NCBI GenBank assembly: GCA_963813025.1
Contig: CAWEXO010000008.1
Span: 224,001-288,000 of the forward strand
Reading direction: 5' to 3'
From: an uncultured Verrucomicrobiae bacterium
GTDB lineage: Bacteria > Verrucomicrobiota > Verrucomicrobiia > Chthoniobacterales > JAFAMB01
Length of the DNA: 64,000 nucleotides
Made by a program: the position numbers. Position 1 is the first letter of the stretch; each line of letters starts with the position of its first letter. Of the stretch, positions 33,001 through 48,000 are shown in pieces.

Positions 33001-36000
33001 CGCCGACGATATACCGATGGTGGCACCCAGCGTTCCGCTAAAAGGCGCAGCAGGTGCTTGTCCCGAAACCCTCGAAGCTTCCAACGTGGATCCACTGTAG
33101 CCAAAAAACTGAAGACTTCCTCATCGAGGAACGGATATCTCACTTCCACCGAAGAGTTCATCGCTACGCGATCCCCTTTAGCCTGGAGCAGATGCCCAGC
33201 CAGGGTGACGCGGGCCGCGACCCAGATACCTCGGTTCAGCGGGTGCCAGCGTTTGGCCCGCTCCAGCGGCATTTGCAGATCAGTCCACGGATTGGTGTTC
33301 TTCAGGACTTCTCTCATCGGCGCAGCGTAAAAGCGAAGCTTTGAGAGACCAAGCAGTCCATAAGCATCGATCCAGGCGTTGGGACCGCCGACGGATTCCT
33401 CCACGCTGCGCCGAAAGTCCTTCGGATATTGCGGCACTCGGTGCAATCGAAGATAGGCGCGGCGGAGCTGATCGCTGAGCCGCAATCCAGGAATGAGATC
33501 CAGGAAACCGAGTGCCTTGGCCGCCTTATACCACGGATAACCGACCAGCCATTCGTCAGCCCCTTCACCCGTGAGAACTACCTTCTGCCCGCAGGAATGA
33601 ACACGCTGCGCCAATAGCAGCAAAGCAGCGCAGGAGGTGTCGACGACAGGCGCCTCTGCCGCGTGGATCAGTTGAGGATAGGTGTTCAGCGCGTCATCGG
33701 CGCGGAATTTCTGGACGATTGGAGGCTTCGTGCCGATGTGTCGAGCCACGAGGTTGGCCGCGTCAAGCTCGTCGAGCTCGGGCGCCTCAACGCGGACCGT
33801 GTAAGTATTAATCGCCGGACCCTTGAGATGACAGGCGAGGGCTGTGATGATGCTCGAGTCGACACCACCTGATAAATAGGAACCTACTGGCACATCGGCC
33901 CGGAGACGCTTCCCGACCGCCTGTAGCATCAGCTGCTCGAAACGATCCACCAGAGCGCGCGGGTTCGCGCCAGGGTCTTCGTCGCCGCGGTCCGGAAAAT
34001 CCATTTCCCAATACGCATGTTCACTGACGACCGACGGAGTACCGGCATCGTTCCCCGGAACTATCTGCAAGTAACGCCCCGGAGGCAGCAGCTGCACGCC
34101 TTCGAAGCATGTCGTCGGAGCGGGCAGTGCAGAAAACGTAAAAATATGATCAATGCCGCGCAGATCGGGTCGCGCCGAGACCATGCCGGAAGCAAGCAGG
34201 CCCTTGATTTCAGACGCGAAGAGGAGCCACTCCCCTTGACGAGTCCAATAAAGCGGACAGATACCGAAACGATCGCGCCCGAGCACTAAACGCCGGCGGC
34301 GCTCATCCCACAACGCCAGGGCGAACTGGCCGCGGAGGCGCTCAAACATGGCTTCCTGGCACTCTTCCCAGAGATGCGGGACAATTTCGGTATCGCAATG
34401 CGTGACCAACCGGTGTCCGCGCTCTTCCAGGGCCGCCCTTTGCTCAGGATAATCAAAGAACTCGCCGTTAAATACTACGAATATGCTGCGGTCTTCATTC
34501 GTAACGGGCTGCTGGCCATCCGCCAAGCCCACGATACTGAGGCGTCGAGACCCCAGAGCCAGGCCGGGACGTTGAAAGTAGCCCTCCTCATCAGGACCAC
34601 GGTGAAATATCGCCTGCGCCATCCGTTGGATAATGCCATCCGCGATGGAGCGGTGTCCGGACAGATCCACAATGCCTGCAATACCACACATGCCAGTCAG
34701 CTTTAGTCCATGGCAGGCCGGTCAAACAATCGCTTTTTTTTGCCTGGTTCCATTCAATTGCACCGGACCGGAACGAGGCCCGAGAAATGAGAACTCCAAA
34801 AAAAGACCGATTTTGTTGGCGAAAACCGTAATGTCGTGGTCACTATCCGCACTGTTTTGCACGCTTCAGCCACTCAGGACAACATTGACTTGTCCCACGC
34901 GAAATTTGTACCCATATAATCCTCCGCTCGCGTCACGCGACGCTAACCCCTTCTATGCCCAAAGATCGTATCGCAATCATCGGAATTGGCTGCCGTTTCC
35001 CCGGCGGGGTGAATGACCCAGAGTCATTCTGGAAACTGCTCGTAGAGGGACGCGAGGCCGTGGGTGATGTGCCGCCTGACCGGTGGAACATCGAACGATT
35101 TTTCGATGCGGAGCCGGATCTGCCGGGAAAATCGATTGCTCGACGTGGCGGATTTTTGGAGGACATCGATCAGTTCGACCCGCAGTTTTTCGGAATCTCG
35201 CCGCGGGAAGCGCCCTACGTAGATCCACAGCACCGATTGCTGCTGGAGACAGCTTGGGAAGCGATCGAGGACGCCGGCGTGGTCCTCGATCTTGAGCGCG
35301 GGACCGACCTGGCCGTGTTTGTCGGAATTTCGCACAACGAATATCAGGGAATTCAGAGTACCCCGTTTGATCATTCCGGCATCGGTCCGCACTCGCCCAC
35401 TGGCTGCGCACACAGTATTGCGGCCAACCGCATCTCCTATTGCCTCAATCTGCGCGGCGCGAGCGTCGCGATGGATACTGCCTGTTCGTCCGCGCTGACG
35501 GCAGTGCATGCGGCATGCGAACACATTCGGGGGGGCCGAGGCGATGCGGCGCTGGCCGGCGGAGTCACAGTGATGATTACGCCCGGAGGATTCATCGGCT
35601 TTTCTCAAGCCTCGATGCTGTCTCCGGAGGGTCGATGCAAGGCGTTCGATGCTTCGGCCGATGGTTTCGTTCGTGGCGAAGGCGCTGGCATGGTGCTCCT
35701 CAAGCGGCTATCACAGGCTTTAGCGGACGGGGACCCCATCCACGGAGTGATTATTGGCACCGCTCTCAACCAGGACGGCCGCACCAATGGAATGTCGCTC
35801 CCCAGCGCCCGAGCGCAGGCGTCGCTGGTGCGCGATGCATGCGCAGACGCCGGAGTTTCTCCATCCGAAATCGGATTTGTCGAAGCTCACGGCACCGGGA
35901 CAGCGGTGGGAGATCCGATCGAGGCCCACGCGCTTTCCGAGGCACTTTGCCAAGATCGTTCGCCCGAAGCGCCGCTACTCGTCGGCTCGGTGAAGACGAA

Positions 36001-45000: not shown

Positions 45001-48000
45001 CCGGCGCGAAAACGCGACCCTCCGATTTGGCGACTCAAAACGAATTATTATTGGCTCCTTGTCGTCTATCAGGGGGCAATCGGTACGATCCTACGAACAA
45101 TTGAAAATTAACGAGAGTAGAAAAGAAAATCGCCAGACTCCTGCGCCTTGGCAGCTTTCCGGAGCGTCTTCAGCATCATGCGGAGAGCCATTTGCGCTGG
45201 AGGAAGAGGCGGCTAGCCCTGCGGAAGATGTATTCGAGGTTCTGGCCCTTAGAAAACACTTCGATGATGGCCAAGTACAGGCTCTACGAGGTGTGGATTT
45301 GCGGGTGACTCAGGGTGAATTCGTTGCCATTACCGGCCCGAGCGGCTGTGGAAAAACCACTCTGCTTCAAATGCTCGGCGCGCTGAACCGGCCTACTGCG
45401 GGCACCCTGCTCTATCGCGGAAACTCCATCCCTGATCTGCCTGATCCGTCCGTCTATCGCGCCCAGGAGATCGGATTTATTTTCCAGTCATTTCACCTTC
45501 TGCCAACGTTCACCGCACTGGAGAACGTGCAAATTCCGATGTTTGAAAGCGAACTGCCGATTTCGGAGCGGCGAGCTCGAGGGATCGCTTTGCTGAAATC
45601 GGTTGGGTTGGAGCATCGTCTCCATCATTTCCCCGCCAAGTTGTCTGGCGGAGAAAGACAGCGTGTCGGGATCGCTCGCAGCCTGGCTAATAGCCCTTCT
45701 GTCCTGCTCGCGGATGAGCCAACCGGTAGTCTGGACAGCGAGAACGCGCACCTTGTTCTCGACCTGATCGTTCGGGTACACCAGGAGCAGAACATGACTC
45801 TGGTGCTGGTGACACACGACGTGAGTATCGCCCAACGAGCATCCCGAACAATTCAGATGAAGGACGGGCACGTTGTGTCAGATCGTCAAACGACCCTCAG
45901 CGGAAAATATATATGAGCTTCTTTACAGTGGTGGTGCGTGGGCTGATACGTCGTCCGATGCGAACTGGGCTAACGCTTCTGGGCATTTCCATAGGGATCG
46001 CGGCCGTCGTGGCACTAGTCGGTATCGCGCGGGGATTTGATAAGAGCTGGGCGACTGGAATGAAGGCTCGCGGCACCGATGTGGTTGTCAGCGACATGAG
46101 CAGCTCGCTGATCCCGAAGCCGTTTAATATGTCCGTGCGTGACCGTATCGTTCACCTCCCCCATGTGGCGGATACGTGTGCGATTTTGGTCGATTTGATG
46201 AGCGTGGAAAACGTCGAGATGATGATGGTATCTGCGCGAGAGTGGGACGGATTCGCCTGGAAAAACCTTCGGTTAGTTTCCGGGCGGATGCCGCGCGATC
46301 CCGCAGAGCGAACGGTCGTCCTCGGCCGCACTGCGGCCGATGTGCTGAAGAAAAAAGTCGGCGATCCGATCCAGATCGACACTGCCGAATTGACTGTCGT
46401 CGGGATCGTTGATGGCAATGCCTGGGTAGAGAACGGCTCAATCATACTCTCGCTGCCACTTTTTCAGGAAATCACGGGGAACCAGGGCAAGATCAACGTG
46501 ATTGACGTCCGCGTCACACCCTCGACCACACCCGCGGAGGTAGAACATCTCTGTGCGCAGATCAACCAGCTTGTCCCCGAAGGTCGCGCTATGCTGGCCG
46601 GCGAGAACATCAACCACAGCGAGGCATCGCGCATTGTACAGGCCATGAGCTGGGGCACTTCTTTGCTGGCAGTGCTCGTCGGTGTGTTAGGCGTGATGAA
46701 CACCATGCTGATGAACGTTTTTGAGCGCACTCAGGAAATTTGCATCTTGCTCGCACTGGGCTGGAAACGTGCGCGAATCGTTCGCATGGTCTTGTGGGAA
46801 TCGGCTTTGCTCGGCTTCTTCGGCGGCGTTTCCGGCGTGTTGATCGGCTCGGTTGGCGTGAAGGTTTTGGGAGCGGCGCCTGCGATCCGCGGACTCCTCG
46901 AGCCGGACATCAGTATCAGACTTATTGCGACATCAGTGGCGATCGCCGTTGCGGTAGGAGTAGTCAGCGGTCTTTACCCCGCATGGCGCAGTTCGCGGCT
47001 GACGCCTAGCCGAGCTTTGCAGGCTTGAGCGGTCCGAACGAACCATGCAATCGCGTCAACCGATGAAGTTGCGCCTTGCCGGCACCGTCCTTAGTCTCGC
47101 GTTGTCGGTTCAGCGCTGGCGCCGCCAATAGCGAACCGTCCGCCAAAGATCTCGCCGCAAGCCTGGCCGCCCGGCAGGAGGGCACAGCATACGTGCGCTT
47201 GCGTCTGGAGACGAAACAGCCGGGCGGCGCGACAAAGACGATGCTCCAACTGCAGCTCAAGGAGCGCCACACGAAAACAGCTGGCGATGTCGTTTACCAG
47301 GTCCTTTGGCCTAAAGAGCGAAAAGGAGAAGCTGTTCTTTTACACAAAGCAGCGAGTCAGCCTCCGACCGGATCGATTTTCACTCCTCCGGACAAGCTGC
47401 GCTCTCTGAACCCCTCGGAGATGAAGGATAGCTTGTTCGGCAGCGACCTCTCTTACCTGGATGTTATCGAAGACTTCTTCACCTGGGACAACCAGGCAAT
47501 CGTCGGCACCGAGGTTCTGAACGGAGTGAACTGCGTCATTCTCGAGTCGAAGCCGAGCAAAGCTGAATCTTCCGTTTACGGCAGAGTGCGCAGCTGGATA
47601 GACCCTAAGCGGCTCGTGCCAGTCCGCATCGAAAAATACCTGCCCTCGGGCGAACTCGCGCGGCGCATCGAGACGGTTCGAGTGGCTACGGATGATACCG
47701 GTCATCCCATCCCCGCCGATCTCACGGTGCGCGTTCCGCGGGAAGATTCGGTGACCGAAGTGGATGGGTCGCGGATTAGACACGATGTGACCTTTTCCGA
47801 TCGCGAATTCACGCCAGAAGGCCTGAAAGAACTCTCGGCACCGAAAAGCGCACCGTAAGGAAAGCGGCGGGAGCGGAGGGAGCGGGTTCGGCGGAGGGAG
47901 GTAGCTGAAGAGTTGAGGAGTTCACCGTTTTGCGCTACCTCCCTCCGCTGAACCCGCTCCCTGCGCTCCCGCCGCTTTCCTTACCGCTTCCTCCACATAC

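What a model noticed while it worked through the whole genome (the two positions that open the first line are those of the whole stretch)
34955..47858. Conserved PKS - condensation domain - desaturase - MacB ABC - LolA-like cluster: a PDIM-style lipid export line in Chtho [...]
One co-directional cluster encodes a fully reducing single-module type I PKS (KS-AT-DH-cMT-ER-KR-ACP, here cut into g01438-g01441 by frame breaks), a condensation domain (g01442-g01444), a membrane fatty-acid-desaturase-family enzyme (g01445), a MacB/FtsX-type ABC exporter (g01446-g01447) and a LolA-like periplasmic protein (g01448), and the whole set is kept in order at 64-85% protein identity in other genera of the family. 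I read it as the synthesis and outer-membrane delivery line of a methyl-branched polyketide lipid ester or amide, built on the same logic as mycobacterial Mas + PapA5 + DrrABC + LppX for phthiocerol dimycocerosate, i.e. a structural envelope lipid of these soil Verrucomi [...]
Evidence so far: Domains from pfam.tsv. Synteny by six-frame protein searches in 5 long-read family genomes: PKS 73-83% identity in 5 of 5, as one open frame of 2570-2585 aa in G007, G023, G035; desaturase 73-93% in 5 of 5, 3-4 kb downstream on the same strand; LolA-like 64-73% in 4 of 5, 2-3 kb further on (not found in the 79%-complete genus mate, whose contig starts inside the PKS); e.g. G007 C2: 3217205-3211434, 3208129-3207176, 3205174-3204416. 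neighbours.tsv: Condensation next to FA_desaturase in at least 169 of 794 genomes of the order, which is 169 of only 664 such cases in all genomes compared; KR next to Condensation in 150 of the order. Full-text search Verrucomicrobia + polyketide synthase + outer [...]
(Added by a program. Inside this text positions count along the whole contig: contig position 224,001 is position 1 of the stretch shown here. "Call 12" and the like, gene names such as g00115 and contig names such as C1 are that model's own, and its searches are not shown. The text may have been shortened before it was handed on; [...] marks where a part breaks off. The agent that wrote the report below was given it as the finding of a first reader that could run no searches.)

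Follow-up and report, generated by a model that had tools for sequence, protein, structure and literature searches.

The report
Conserved polyketide-lipid synthesis and export locus
Some soil Verrucomicrobia keep a tightly conserved set of genes that appears to build a methyl-branched fatty chain, attach it to an unknown head group and pass it to a dedicated carrier outside the inner membrane; the product is unknown, and the breaks in this copy look like sequencing errors.

Summary
Window 34955-47858 (+) encodes a KS-AT-DH-cMT-ER-KR-ACP type I PKS, a free-standing condensation (C) enzyme, a membrane di-iron desaturase/hydroxylase, a MacB-type ABC pair and a LolA_like protein.

The frame breaks are mostly single-base insertions. 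At the 3 break sites covered by near-identical contigs of a public soil run, the extra base is missing. I read them as assembly errors.

The locus is larger than reported. A divergent AsnB-type amidotransferase, one to three lipoprotein amidases and a secreted TPR protein are co-inherited with it.

Across 80 related loci from Chthoniobacterales and Verrucomicrobiales:
- C sits next to the desaturase in 71 of 72.
- The exporter trio follows in 43-46 of 58.
- AsnB lies upstream in 39 of 46.

Divergence tracks RpoB, so inheritance looks vertical with losses. The gene set is patchy: 27 of 43 family genomes and 4 of 400 sampled phylum genomes carry the desaturase.

The C enzyme is NRPS-type, not PapA5-type. 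It is the only C domain in two genomes, so it probably loads a free acceptor.

The PDIM analogy holds as logic, not as homology. The closest Gram-negative precedent is aryl-polyene export. Product, acceptor and final location remain inferred.

The parts
30420..31187 (-). TPR protein with an N-terminal signal peptide (MNSVSSRAFPLLAALLLTSATLRA/QS); likely periplasmic
   Evidence: Pfam TPR families; translation. It adjoins the amidase also in G384 and G090.
31324..32631 (-). Amidase-signature enzyme with a lipoprotein signal (lipobox FLGGC), GGSSSG and GTDTAGS motifs; likely faces the periplasm
   Evidence: PF01425 209 bits; translation. Orthologue found in 26 of 43 family genomes, 24 of which also have the desaturase; 1-3 tandem copies lie beside AsnB. 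It lies beside the cluster in 4 of 5 further genomes.
32697..34691 (-). AsnB-type glutamine-hydrolysing amidotransferase (Cys2 nucleophile MCGIAG; SGGVDSS PP-loop), divergent from the PKS
   Evidence: TIGR01536 406 bits against a cut-off of 267; translation. Upstream and divergent in 39 of 46 loci. Co-occurrence with the desaturase in the family: both 24, AsnB only 1, desaturase only 3, neither 15.
34692..34954 (.). 263-bp divergent intergenic region between AsnB and the PKS; a shared control region is possible
   Evidence: Sequence. No promoter call above chance.
34955..42650 (+). Single-module, fully reducing type I PKS, KS-AT-DH-cMT-ER-KR-ACP, with no loading domain and no thioesterase; read through four +1 insertions (40708, 41228, 41524, 42151)
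42663..44019 (+). Free-standing NRPS-type condensation enzyme (HHAIADG at 43118-43138); carries four +1 insertions and two deletions in this assembly
44016..44972 (+). Membrane di-iron desaturase/hydroxylase-family enzyme (His boxes HEASH, HQLHH, HGVHH, plus EHVG). Its ATG overlaps the C stop codon (ATGA).
   Evidence: PF00487 111 bits; invariant His residues; AlphaFold model pLDDT 88.9; fold matches
45164..45916 (+). ABC ATPase (Walker A GPSGCGKTT, signature LSGGERQR, Walker B LLADEPTG); the start codon is uncertain
45913..47028 (+). MacB-type permease (MacB_PCD periplasmic domain plus FtsX transmembrane domain); its start overlaps the ATPase stop
47045..47858 (+). LolA_like periplasmic protein. 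The signal peptide is in another frame in this assembly (break near 47105-47125). G007 has an intact signal peptide with no lipobox.
   Evidence: PF17131 90.9 bits

Best explanation
This is a vertically inherited, 9-11-gene locus that makes and exports an acylated lipid whose chain comes from a polyketide synthase.

Proposed steps (all inferred from domain content, not shown):
1. An iterative, fully reducing type I PKS builds a saturated chain from malonyl units, with SAM-derived methyl branches.
2. There is no thioesterase. The adjacent free-standing NRPS-type C enzyme takes the chain off the ACP and puts it on a nucleophile that is not carried by an NRPS. An amine, giving an N-acyl amide, is the more likely acceptor; an alcohol is possible.
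3. A membrane di-iron enzyme desaturates or hydroxylates the lipid.
4. The cytoplasmic AsnB-type enzyme converts a carboxylate of the product or its head group into a carboxamide.
5. A Lol-like machine extracts the lipid from the inner membrane and shuttles it across the periplasm. This machine is a MacB-type ABC without an adaptor protein, plus a soluble LolA_like carrier.
6. Lipoprotein amidase(s) and a TPR protein act on the lipid outside the cytoplasm.

Shown: gene content, intact catalytic motifs, conserved order, co-inheritance, and predicted compartments.
Inferred: chain length, the acceptor, the chemistry of the di-iron enzyme, the order of steps and the final location.
For: Domains and motifs:
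- Domain set. The G007 PKS sequence shows KS DTACSS/EAHGTGT/KTNLGH, AT GHSVGE with HPFH, cMT LEVGAGTGG, ER HAGAGGVG, KR GAFGGFG...YGAAN and ACP LGLDSL. Reading these as active-site motifs is from recall.
- No thioesterase domain in the PKS.
- The C enzyme has HHAIADG.
- Stop/start overlaps link C to the desaturase and the ATPase to the permease.

Acceptor:
- The cluster's C domain is the only Condensation domain in G384 (99% complete) and in G024 (89%). An aminoacyl-PCP acceptor is therefore unlikely there.

Synteny in 80 loci:
- C beside the desaturase in 71 of 72.
- ABC+FtsX+LolA_like downstream in 43 of 58 by the strict filter. The figure is 46 if three loci are counted whose ABC hit starts 3-33 nt before the desaturase match ends (L095, L097, L100).
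- AsnB upstream in 39 of 46.

Co-inheritance in the family:
- AsnB against the desaturase: 24, 1, 3, 15.
- Amidase against the desaturase: 24, 2, 3, 14.
- Cluster-less genomes hold only 31-36% AsnB paralogues.

Vertical descent and strong constraint, G007 against G384: RpoB 73%, PKS 68%, AsnB 73%, ABC 68%, FtsX 64%, desaturase 57%, C 56%, LolA-like 45%.

Compartments: lipobox on the amidase and signal peptides on the TPR and LolA-like proteins.

Hand-off from permease to carrier: the predicted complex of the permease's periplasmic domain with the LolA-like protein scored ipSAE 0.45, best of three controls 0.00, verdict 'weak support'. That mark was reached by 116 of 157 solved complexes and 2 of 215 mismatched pairs, but at a score of 0.60 or under by only 18 of those 157 and by both mismatches. 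The runs agree in at least 95% of contacts and the partner's pLDDT is at least 87. By recall, a LolC-LolA complex has been solved, so the pass may reflect likeness only.
Against: - No product, no lipid data and no RNA evidence exist.
- The locus is patchy: the desaturase was not found in G026, G038 and G008 (94-96% complete) and was found in only 4 of 400 sampled phylum genomes. The product is therefore dispensable.
- PKS-C-desaturase persist without the exporter in 8 of 58 loci, and in the genus mate, where only a C-terminal remnant of the LolA-like gene is left.
- G090 keeps amidase-TPR-desaturase but has lost the PKS and AsnB and keeps only the last 34 codons of C. Those three genes may therefore have a role that does not need the PKS.
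- The C enzyme is closest to NRPS elongation-type domains, which normally use carrier-bound acceptors. Small stand-alone carrier proteins exist in these genomes.
- The di-iron enzyme cannot be assigned to desaturase or hydroxylase.
- The complex prediction is only weak support.
Confidence: 0.6

Rival explanations
1. The product is a released or diffusible lipoamide, such as a surfactant, signal or antibiotic-like N-acyl compound, not an envelope lipid. The MacB-type ABC would be its efflux pump, the LolA-like protein a periplasmic chaperone, and the periplasmic amidases would mature or detoxify it.
For: Distribution is patchy and losses are repeated, as expected of an accessory trait. No outer-membrane insertion factor or LolB-like gene was seen in the conserved set. 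Amidases occur as 1-3 tandem copies, which suggests diversification. That MacB-type pumps export small molecules and lipopeptides is from recall.
Against: A PKS that is 68% identical across two orders, where RpoB is 73%, is far more conserved than is usual for specialised metabolites. There is no adaptor or TolC-like gene for crossing the outer membrane. The LolA_like family consists of carriers for hydrophobic cargo.
Confidence: 0.22
2. The ABC/LolA-like genes, and perhaps the amidase/TPR genes, are only neighbours and serve another substrate. Only PKS-C-desaturase form the pathway.
For: PKS-C-desaturase occur without the exporter in 8 of 58 loci and in G001. G090 keeps amidase-TPR-desaturase without the PKS.
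Against: The same order and strand are kept in 43-46 of 58 loci over two orders, with stop/start overlaps. In cluster-less genomes only 25-29% LolA_like paralogues were found. The amidase and AsnB orthologues are absent from most family genomes that lack the desaturase. In G001 the exporter was lost by a deletion that left a LolA-like remnant, so it is a derived state.
Confidence: 0.08
3. In this strain the PKS and C genes are real pseudogenes and the pathway is dead.
For: There are ten indels in 3.3 kb (40708-43939) and another at the LolA-like start. Five sites are not covered by any independent contig: 41228, 41524, 43088, 43106 and 43939.
Against: Contigs of public run X1, with 0-7 differing letters per 150-330 nt, lack the extra base at 40701/40708, 42151 and 43613/43615. 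That is 3 of 3 covered insertion sites. Loose ends at 43633 and 43903 run on as if the next indels were absent too. Eight of the ten events are +1 insertions. There is no in-frame nonsense, and identity in the broken pieces (67-86%) is like that of the intact part (78%). Other genes of the window are fragmented too, and the genome scores only 80% complete in 16 contigs.
Confidence: 0.07

Closest known systems
Mycobacterial PDIM line: Mas + PapA5 + DrrABC/MmpL7 + LppX (from recall; one PDIM transport paper seen as a search listing, PMC1238737)
   Same: An iterative reducing type I PKS without a thioesterase is unloaded by a neighbouring free-standing HHxxxDG acyltransferase. A dedicated membrane exporter and a LolA-fold periplasmic carrier follow.
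   Different: The C enzyme is not a PapA. The dimycocerosyl transferase chain 8s6l scores E 0.14, against 2e-40 for TycC. Methyl branches would come from a cMT domain, not from methylmalonyl units. The exporter is MacB/FtsX-type, not ABC-2 or MmpL. AsnB, periplasmic amidases and a di-iron enzyme have no PDIM counterpart.
Aryl polyene (APE) clusters of Gram-negative bacteria: ApeL (LolA-like), ApeM (RND), ApeN (LolB-like). Passages read in PMC8253772; abstract of bioRxiv 10.1101/2020.12.19.423268.
   Same: A polyketide-like lipid pathway of a diderm bacterium with its own LolA-like carrier, proposed to place the lipid in the outer membrane.
   Different: APE uses type II FAS-like enzymes, an RND pump and a LolB-like protein. 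Here there is a type I PKS, a MacB-type ABC and no LolB-like gene in the conserved set.
LolCDE-LolA lipoprotein sorting
   Same: An ATPase, an FtsX/MacB_PCD permease and a soluble periplasmic LolA-fold carrier, with no adaptor protein. The best NCBIfam hit of the ATPase is LolD.
   Different: Scores lie below the equivalog cut-offs: LolD 230 against 307.75, lolCE 59 against 362.45, and the carrier has no LolA model hit. There is a single permease gene. The set is embedded in a lipid synthesis operon and is dispensable.
Heterocyst glycolipid export by DevBCA-TolC (role from recall; DevA family hit)
   Same: A PKS-made envelope lipid exported by a MacB-type ABC. The DevA family scores 188 bits, below its cut-off of 295.8.
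   Different: No DevB-like adaptor, no glycosyltransferase, and a different PKS architecture.
Free-standing condensation enzymes VibH and SgcC5 (functions from recall; 4znm 'C-domain type II peptide synthetase' at E 3.5e-24)
   Same: A stand-alone C enzyme that joins a carrier-bound acyl group to a soluble amine or alcohol.
   Different: The donor here is a reducing PKS, and the acceptor is unknown. VibH was not among the matches at E up to 10.

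Membership tests
Type I fully reducing (Mas-like / HR) PKS | One module with KS, AT, DH, ER, KR and ACP (plus cMT) on one polypeptide | tested here: met
   Pfam on the intact G007 protein of 2567 aa. The window pieces add up to the same set.
Type I fully reducing (Mas-like / HR) PKS | Iterative use of the single module; chain length and starter unit | not testable with these tools
   There is no loading domain and no thioesterase. Iteration is inferred.
PapA-type polyketide-associated acyltransferases (PapA5) | Sequence membership in the PapA clade | tested here: not met
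   8s6l (phthiocerol/phthiodiolone dimycocerosyl transferase) scores E 0.14 and 14 bits, while NRPS C domains score 1e-20 to 1e-40.
PapA-type polyketide-associated acyltransferases (PapA5) | Free-standing HHxxxDG enzyme encoded next to a thioesterase-less PKS | tested here: met
   HHAIADG; 449-452 aa; immediately downstream of the ACP.
NRPS condensation domain (PF00668) | Profile match above the curated cut-off over the full length | tested here: met
   201 bits against 30.6, profile positions 5-443 of 456.
NRPS condensation domain (PF00668) | Works within an NRPS module with a carrier-bound acceptor | tested here: not met
   There is no A or PCP domain in the locus. It is the sole C domain in G384 and G024. 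Proteins of 787-2245 aa gave only 26-34% identical NRPS modules; a PKS-C fusion of about 3000 aa lies outside that length range.
Membrane fatty-acid desaturase / hydroxylase (PF00487) | Three histidine boxes and the membrane di-iron fold | tested here: met
   His residues H85, H89, H121, H124, H125, H238, H273, H276 and H277 are invariant in 24 sequences. The model has pLDDT 88.9. Foldseek gives 8xks_K at E 8e-7 and TM 0.65, FtAlkB at TM 0.50 and SCD1 at TM 0.34-0.36.
Membrane fatty-acid desaturase / hydroxylase (PF00487) | Reaction type and substrate | tested here: inconclusive
   Only weak hits to the GntB hydroxylase (1e-9), DesA (4e-9) and CrtW (7e-6), all far below their cut-offs.
MacB-type (type VII) ABC transporter | MacB_PCD periplasmic domain plus FtsX transmembrane domain, with an ABC ATPase | tested here: met
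   77 and 68 bits; ABC_tran 116 bits.
MacB-type (type VII) ABC transporter | Tripartite pump with a membrane-fusion adaptor | tested here: not met
   There is no adaptor gene among the conserved genes.
Lol pathway | LolD / LolCE / LolA equivalog scores | tested here: not met
   230 against 307.75; 59 against 362.45; no NCBIfam hit for the carrier.
LolA_like (PF17131) | Profile match; secreted and soluble | tested here: met
   90.9 bits against 30. G007 has a signal peptide without a lipobox. Solved relatives: 4z48 at 9e-7 and 9tp6 at 0.014.
Asparagine synthase B-type amidotransferase | TIGR01536 above its cut-off; N-terminal Cys; PP-loop | tested here: met
   406 against 267.1 bits; MCGIAG and SGGVDSS.
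Aryl polyene cluster | Type II KS/ACP set, RND ApeM, LolB-like ApeN | tested here: not met
   None of these is among the locus genes.

The most novel reading that the evidence does not exclude
A 'mask, export, unmask' lipid route. The PKS chain is joined by the free-standing C enzyme to a free amino acid-like head group. The cytoplasmic AsnB-type enzyme then amidates the head group's carboxylate, so that the neutral lipid can be pulled out of the inner membrane by a dedicated paralogue of the Lol machine. This would be a LolA-type carrier working on a non-protein lipid. Outside the cytoplasm, the lipoprotein amidases, present in one to three copies, remove the amide again, helped by the TPR protein, to give the mature charged envelope lipid.
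Probability: 0.15. Interest if true: 0.8.

Novelty: new variant of a known kind. Interest (0 to 1): 0.6.

Why it matters
Chthoniobacterales are common soil bacteria, and very little is known about their envelope lipids. This locus is their only type I PKS in this genome. It is conserved about as well as a core gene across two orders.

It would be a second kind of dedicated LolA-type lipid delivery system in diderm bacteria, beside the aryl polyenes, and it joins that system to a mycobacteria-like PKS plus acyltransferase logic.

It is testable. Genomes labelled Prosthecobacter and Chthoniobacter, genera with cultured members, carry the whole set.

Tried and rejected
A four-sequence alignment worked, but it reaches only close relatives. 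The context of the 30-45% identical desaturases from other phyla was therefore not seen.
- The 741-aa 'fusion' P0134 is not a C-desaturase fusion. Its N-terminus has no Pfam match and no similarity to C, so it is probably a bad gene call.
- Cluster look-up of ten distant desaturases gave no organism names. The ESM Atlas gave only generic desaturase clusters.
- Promoter and terminator scans were at chance level: 8 found against 5.8 expected, and 20 against 20.6.
- No RNA holder was listed for the stretch. Runs X2 and X3 gave only short 90-95% pieces from other organisms.
- Literature searches found no description of this locus: Chthoniobacter + polyketide synthase (10 papers listed); Verrucomicrobiota + BGC terms (listings only); LolA-like + polyketide; Prosthecobacter + polyketide synthase; free-standing condensation + lipid terms. 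Subscription journals are not covered.
- The search for longer proteins with the C enzyme found only ordinary NRPS modules at 26-34% identity.
- A sequence search of the desaturase against solved structures found nothing meaningful.

Full report
**What is in the window**

On the + strand from 34955 to 47858 lie, in order:
- a type I PKS: KS, AT, DH, C-methyltransferase, ER, KR, ACP
- a condensation (C) domain protein
- an FA_desaturase-family membrane protein
- an ABC ATPase
- a MacB_PCD/FtsX permease
- a LolA_like protein

All of these score above Pfam's cut-offs. The PKS is read in five pieces and the C gene in three. It is the only type I PKS in the 4.4-Mb, 16-contig, 80%-complete assembly.

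In relatives the genes are whole. In G007 they are PKS 2567 aa, C 449, desaturase 334, ATPase 248, permease 384 and LolA-like 274 aa. G023 is alike.

The genes are packed tightly. The C stop codon overlaps the desaturase ATG (ATGA at 44016-44019), and the ATPase stop overlaps the permease start.

**The frame breaks**

I aligned the window's PKS and C genes with four relatives. This shows +1 insertions at 40708, 41228, 41524 and 42151 (PKS) and at 43088, 43106, 43613 and 43631 (C). There is also a 5-nt deletion at 43905 and a 1-nt deletion at 43939.

One more break, near 47105-47125, cuts the LolA-like signal peptide from the mature protein.

Contigs of a public soil run (X1) carry nearly the same DNA, with 0-7 differing letters per 150-330 nt. 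They lack the extra base at each of the 3 insertion sites that they cover. Their loose ends at 43633 and 43903 continue as if the next indels were absent as well. Five sites are uncovered.

Three further points agree with assembly error:
- Eight of the ten events are +1 insertions.
- Amino-acid identity inside the broken pieces (67-86%) is like that of the intact 5.7 kb (78%).
- Other genes nearby are fragmented too: half an alpha-amylase, and an AMP-binding gene in pieces.

I therefore read the breaks as assembly errors and give real decay a probability of 0.07.

**The locus is larger than reported**

An AsnB-type amidotransferase is transcribed divergently from the PKS across a 263-bp spacer. 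It scores 406 bits on TIGR01536 against a cut-off of 267, and it has the Cys2 nucleophile and the SGGVDSS PP-loop.

Next come an amidase-signature enzyme with a lipoprotein signal (FLGGC) and a TPR protein with a signal peptide.

AsnB sits in the same place in all four fetched relatives, at 79-86% identity. It is there in 39 of 46 loci that reach far enough upstream.

Within the family's 43 genomes:
- AsnB orthologue and desaturase co-occur as both 24, AsnB only 1, desaturase only 3, neither 15.
- The amidase gives 24, 2, 3, 14.
- All odd cases are genomes of 74-89% completeness.
- These genomes are kin, so the table is descriptive and not a test.

Cluster-less genomes hold only 31-36% AsnB paralogues. 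Cluster-bearing genomes have those paralogues in addition.

The amidase is present in one to three tandem copies beside AsnB: two in G007, G003 and G035, three in G031 and G034. It adjoins the cluster in 4 of 5 further genomes and in G384. In several of these (G384 and the four) it points the other way relative to AsnB. Neighbourhood kept through rearrangement argues for a functional link.

**Distribution and descent**

A scan of one genome per species with a desaturase alignment found 353 relatives. The best 80 loci are all labelled Verrucomicrobiota. Labels include Chthoniobacterales, Chthoniobacter, Terrimicrobiaceae and Prosthecobacter/Verrucomicrobiales, plus a few labels that look wrong.

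Among these loci:
- C is next to the desaturase in 71 of 72.
- The exporter trio follows on the same strand in 43 of 58 by my strict filter. The count is 46 if three loci are included where the ATPase hit starts a few bases before the desaturase match ends.
- 4 loci are partial and 8 have none of the three.

The genus mate G001 has PKS-C-desaturase intact but no exporter. Its second, degraded copy keeps only the last 50 or so codons of the LolA-like gene next to the desaturase, which marks a deletion.

G090 (3.1 Mb, 100% complete) keeps amidase-TPR-desaturase with only the last 34 codons of C, and has no PKS or AsnB orthologue.

In a sample of 400 genomes of the phylum at 90% completeness or more, 4 carry the desaturase orthologue: one in the same order, and three in one genus of another order of the same class.

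Between G007 and G384, RpoB is 73% identical. The locus proteins are 45-73% identical, with the PKS at 68%. Within the family, RpoB is 92-93% and the locus proteins 54-84%. Divergence follows the organisms, so this looks like old vertical descent with repeated loss, under strong constraint for a PKS of this size.

**The parts**

*PKS.* The active-site motifs of KS, AT, DH, cMT, ER, KR and ACP can be read in the intact G007 protein. Their interpretation is from recall, including HPFH as a malonyl-type AT signature. There is no loading domain and no thioesterase.

*C enzyme.* It has HHAIADG and is closest to NRPS elongation-type C domains: TycC 2e-40, Txo2 3e-40. The free-standing 4znm enzyme scores 3.5e-24, and the mycobacterial dimycocerosyl transferase only E 0.14. 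It is the sole Condensation domain in G384 and G024. At least in those genomes it cannot be serving an NRPS module. Small stand-alone carrier proteins exist, however.

*Di-iron enzyme.* It has the three His boxes plus a conserved EHVG and folds with confidence (pLDDT 88.9). It matches desaturase-like chains of a plastid complex (TM 0.65), then AlkB (0.50) and SCD1 (0.34-0.36). Family models give only weak hits to a hydroxylase, a desaturase and a ketolase. Its reaction is open. Its subfamily is small: 96 clusters at E 1e-30 or better among 1.8 billion representatives.

*Transporter.* It has all ABC motifs, a single MacB-type permease and no adaptor. It scores below the Lol equivalog cut-offs.

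*Carrier.* It is a secreted, non-lipidated LolA_like protein.

*Hand-off.* A predicted complex of the permease's periplasmic domain with the carrier scored 0.45 against 0.00 for three controls, verdict 'weak support'. It may echo the solved LolC-LolA pair.

**Reading**

The most economical model is a lipid line:
1. An iterative reducing PKS makes a methyl-branched saturated chain.
2. The free-standing C enzyme transfers the chain to a free nucleophile.
3. The membrane di-iron enzyme modifies it, and AsnB amidates a carboxylate.
4. A Lol-like ABC plus carrier takes it out of the inner membrane.
5. Lipoprotein amidases and the TPR protein act on it outside the cytoplasm.

The pairing of a cytoplasmic amide-maker with secreted amide-breakers suggests a mask-and-unmask step. 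I put this forward as the bold reading (probability 0.15).

The rivals are a released lipoamide with an efflux pump (0.22), mere neighbourhood of the transport genes (0.08) and a dead copy (0.07).

**Comparison with known systems**

The nearest precedent in diderm bacteria is the aryl-polyene cluster, with its LolA-like ApeL, RND ApeM and LolB-like ApeN (passages of PMC8253772). That cluster uses different synthases and a different pump.

Five full-text searches found no description of this locus.

I rate it a new variant of a known kind, with interest 0.6.

Noticed in passing
L021 (G001:C2:1-12000) and L022 (G001:C8:104001-116587): The genus mate holds two copies of the PKS 3' part, C and the desaturase. 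One is intact at a contig start. The other is degraded at a contig end (C in pieces of 37-80% identity, 2 TGA in the desaturase) and has a LolA-like C-terminal remnant. Whether this is a true duplication, a strain mixture or an assembly artefact is open.
   Followed up: partly
L112 (G090:C11:92001-112000), about 8750-12231: A streamlined 3.1-Mb genome keeps amidase, TPR and an intact desaturase gene in a row, with only the last 34 codons of the C gene between them. The PKS and AsnB are gone.
   Followed up: partly
L104:10963-12570 (also L067, L080, L106): Some Prosthecobacter/Verrucomicrobiaceae-labelled loci carry an extra 535-aa alpha/beta-hydrolase (weak PGAP1-like match) between the desaturase and the ABC ATPase.
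   Followed up: partly
G031:C260:3844-7954; G034:C337:18919-22979; G007:C2:3219618-3222368: The lipoprotein-type amidase next to AsnB is tandemly duplicated, in two or three copies at 63-70% identity to the window's.
   Followed up: no
window 48523-54000: Downstream genes are fragmented too: an alpha-amylase ORF that covers only profile positions 1-223 of 446, and an AMP-binding gene in several short minus-strand ORFs. This fits a locally error-rich assembly.
   Followed up: no
G000:C5:21000-49000: The same genome holds a large NRPS cluster, with at least eight Condensation-domain matches and several carrier domains, on another contig. It is unrelated to this locus.
   Followed up: no
protein P0235 (710 aa): A 31%-identical member of the desaturase subfamily is fused to a FemAB-like/GNAT/LPG_synthase_C-like domain. 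That is an aminoacyl-transferase-type fold, and it hints at amino-acid-bearing lipids as substrates of this subfamily.
   Followed up: no
L017:3213-4145 (-): In G007 a 310-aa ORF with no Pfam match follows the LolA-like gene. It was not found in the other 79 loci.
   Followed up: no
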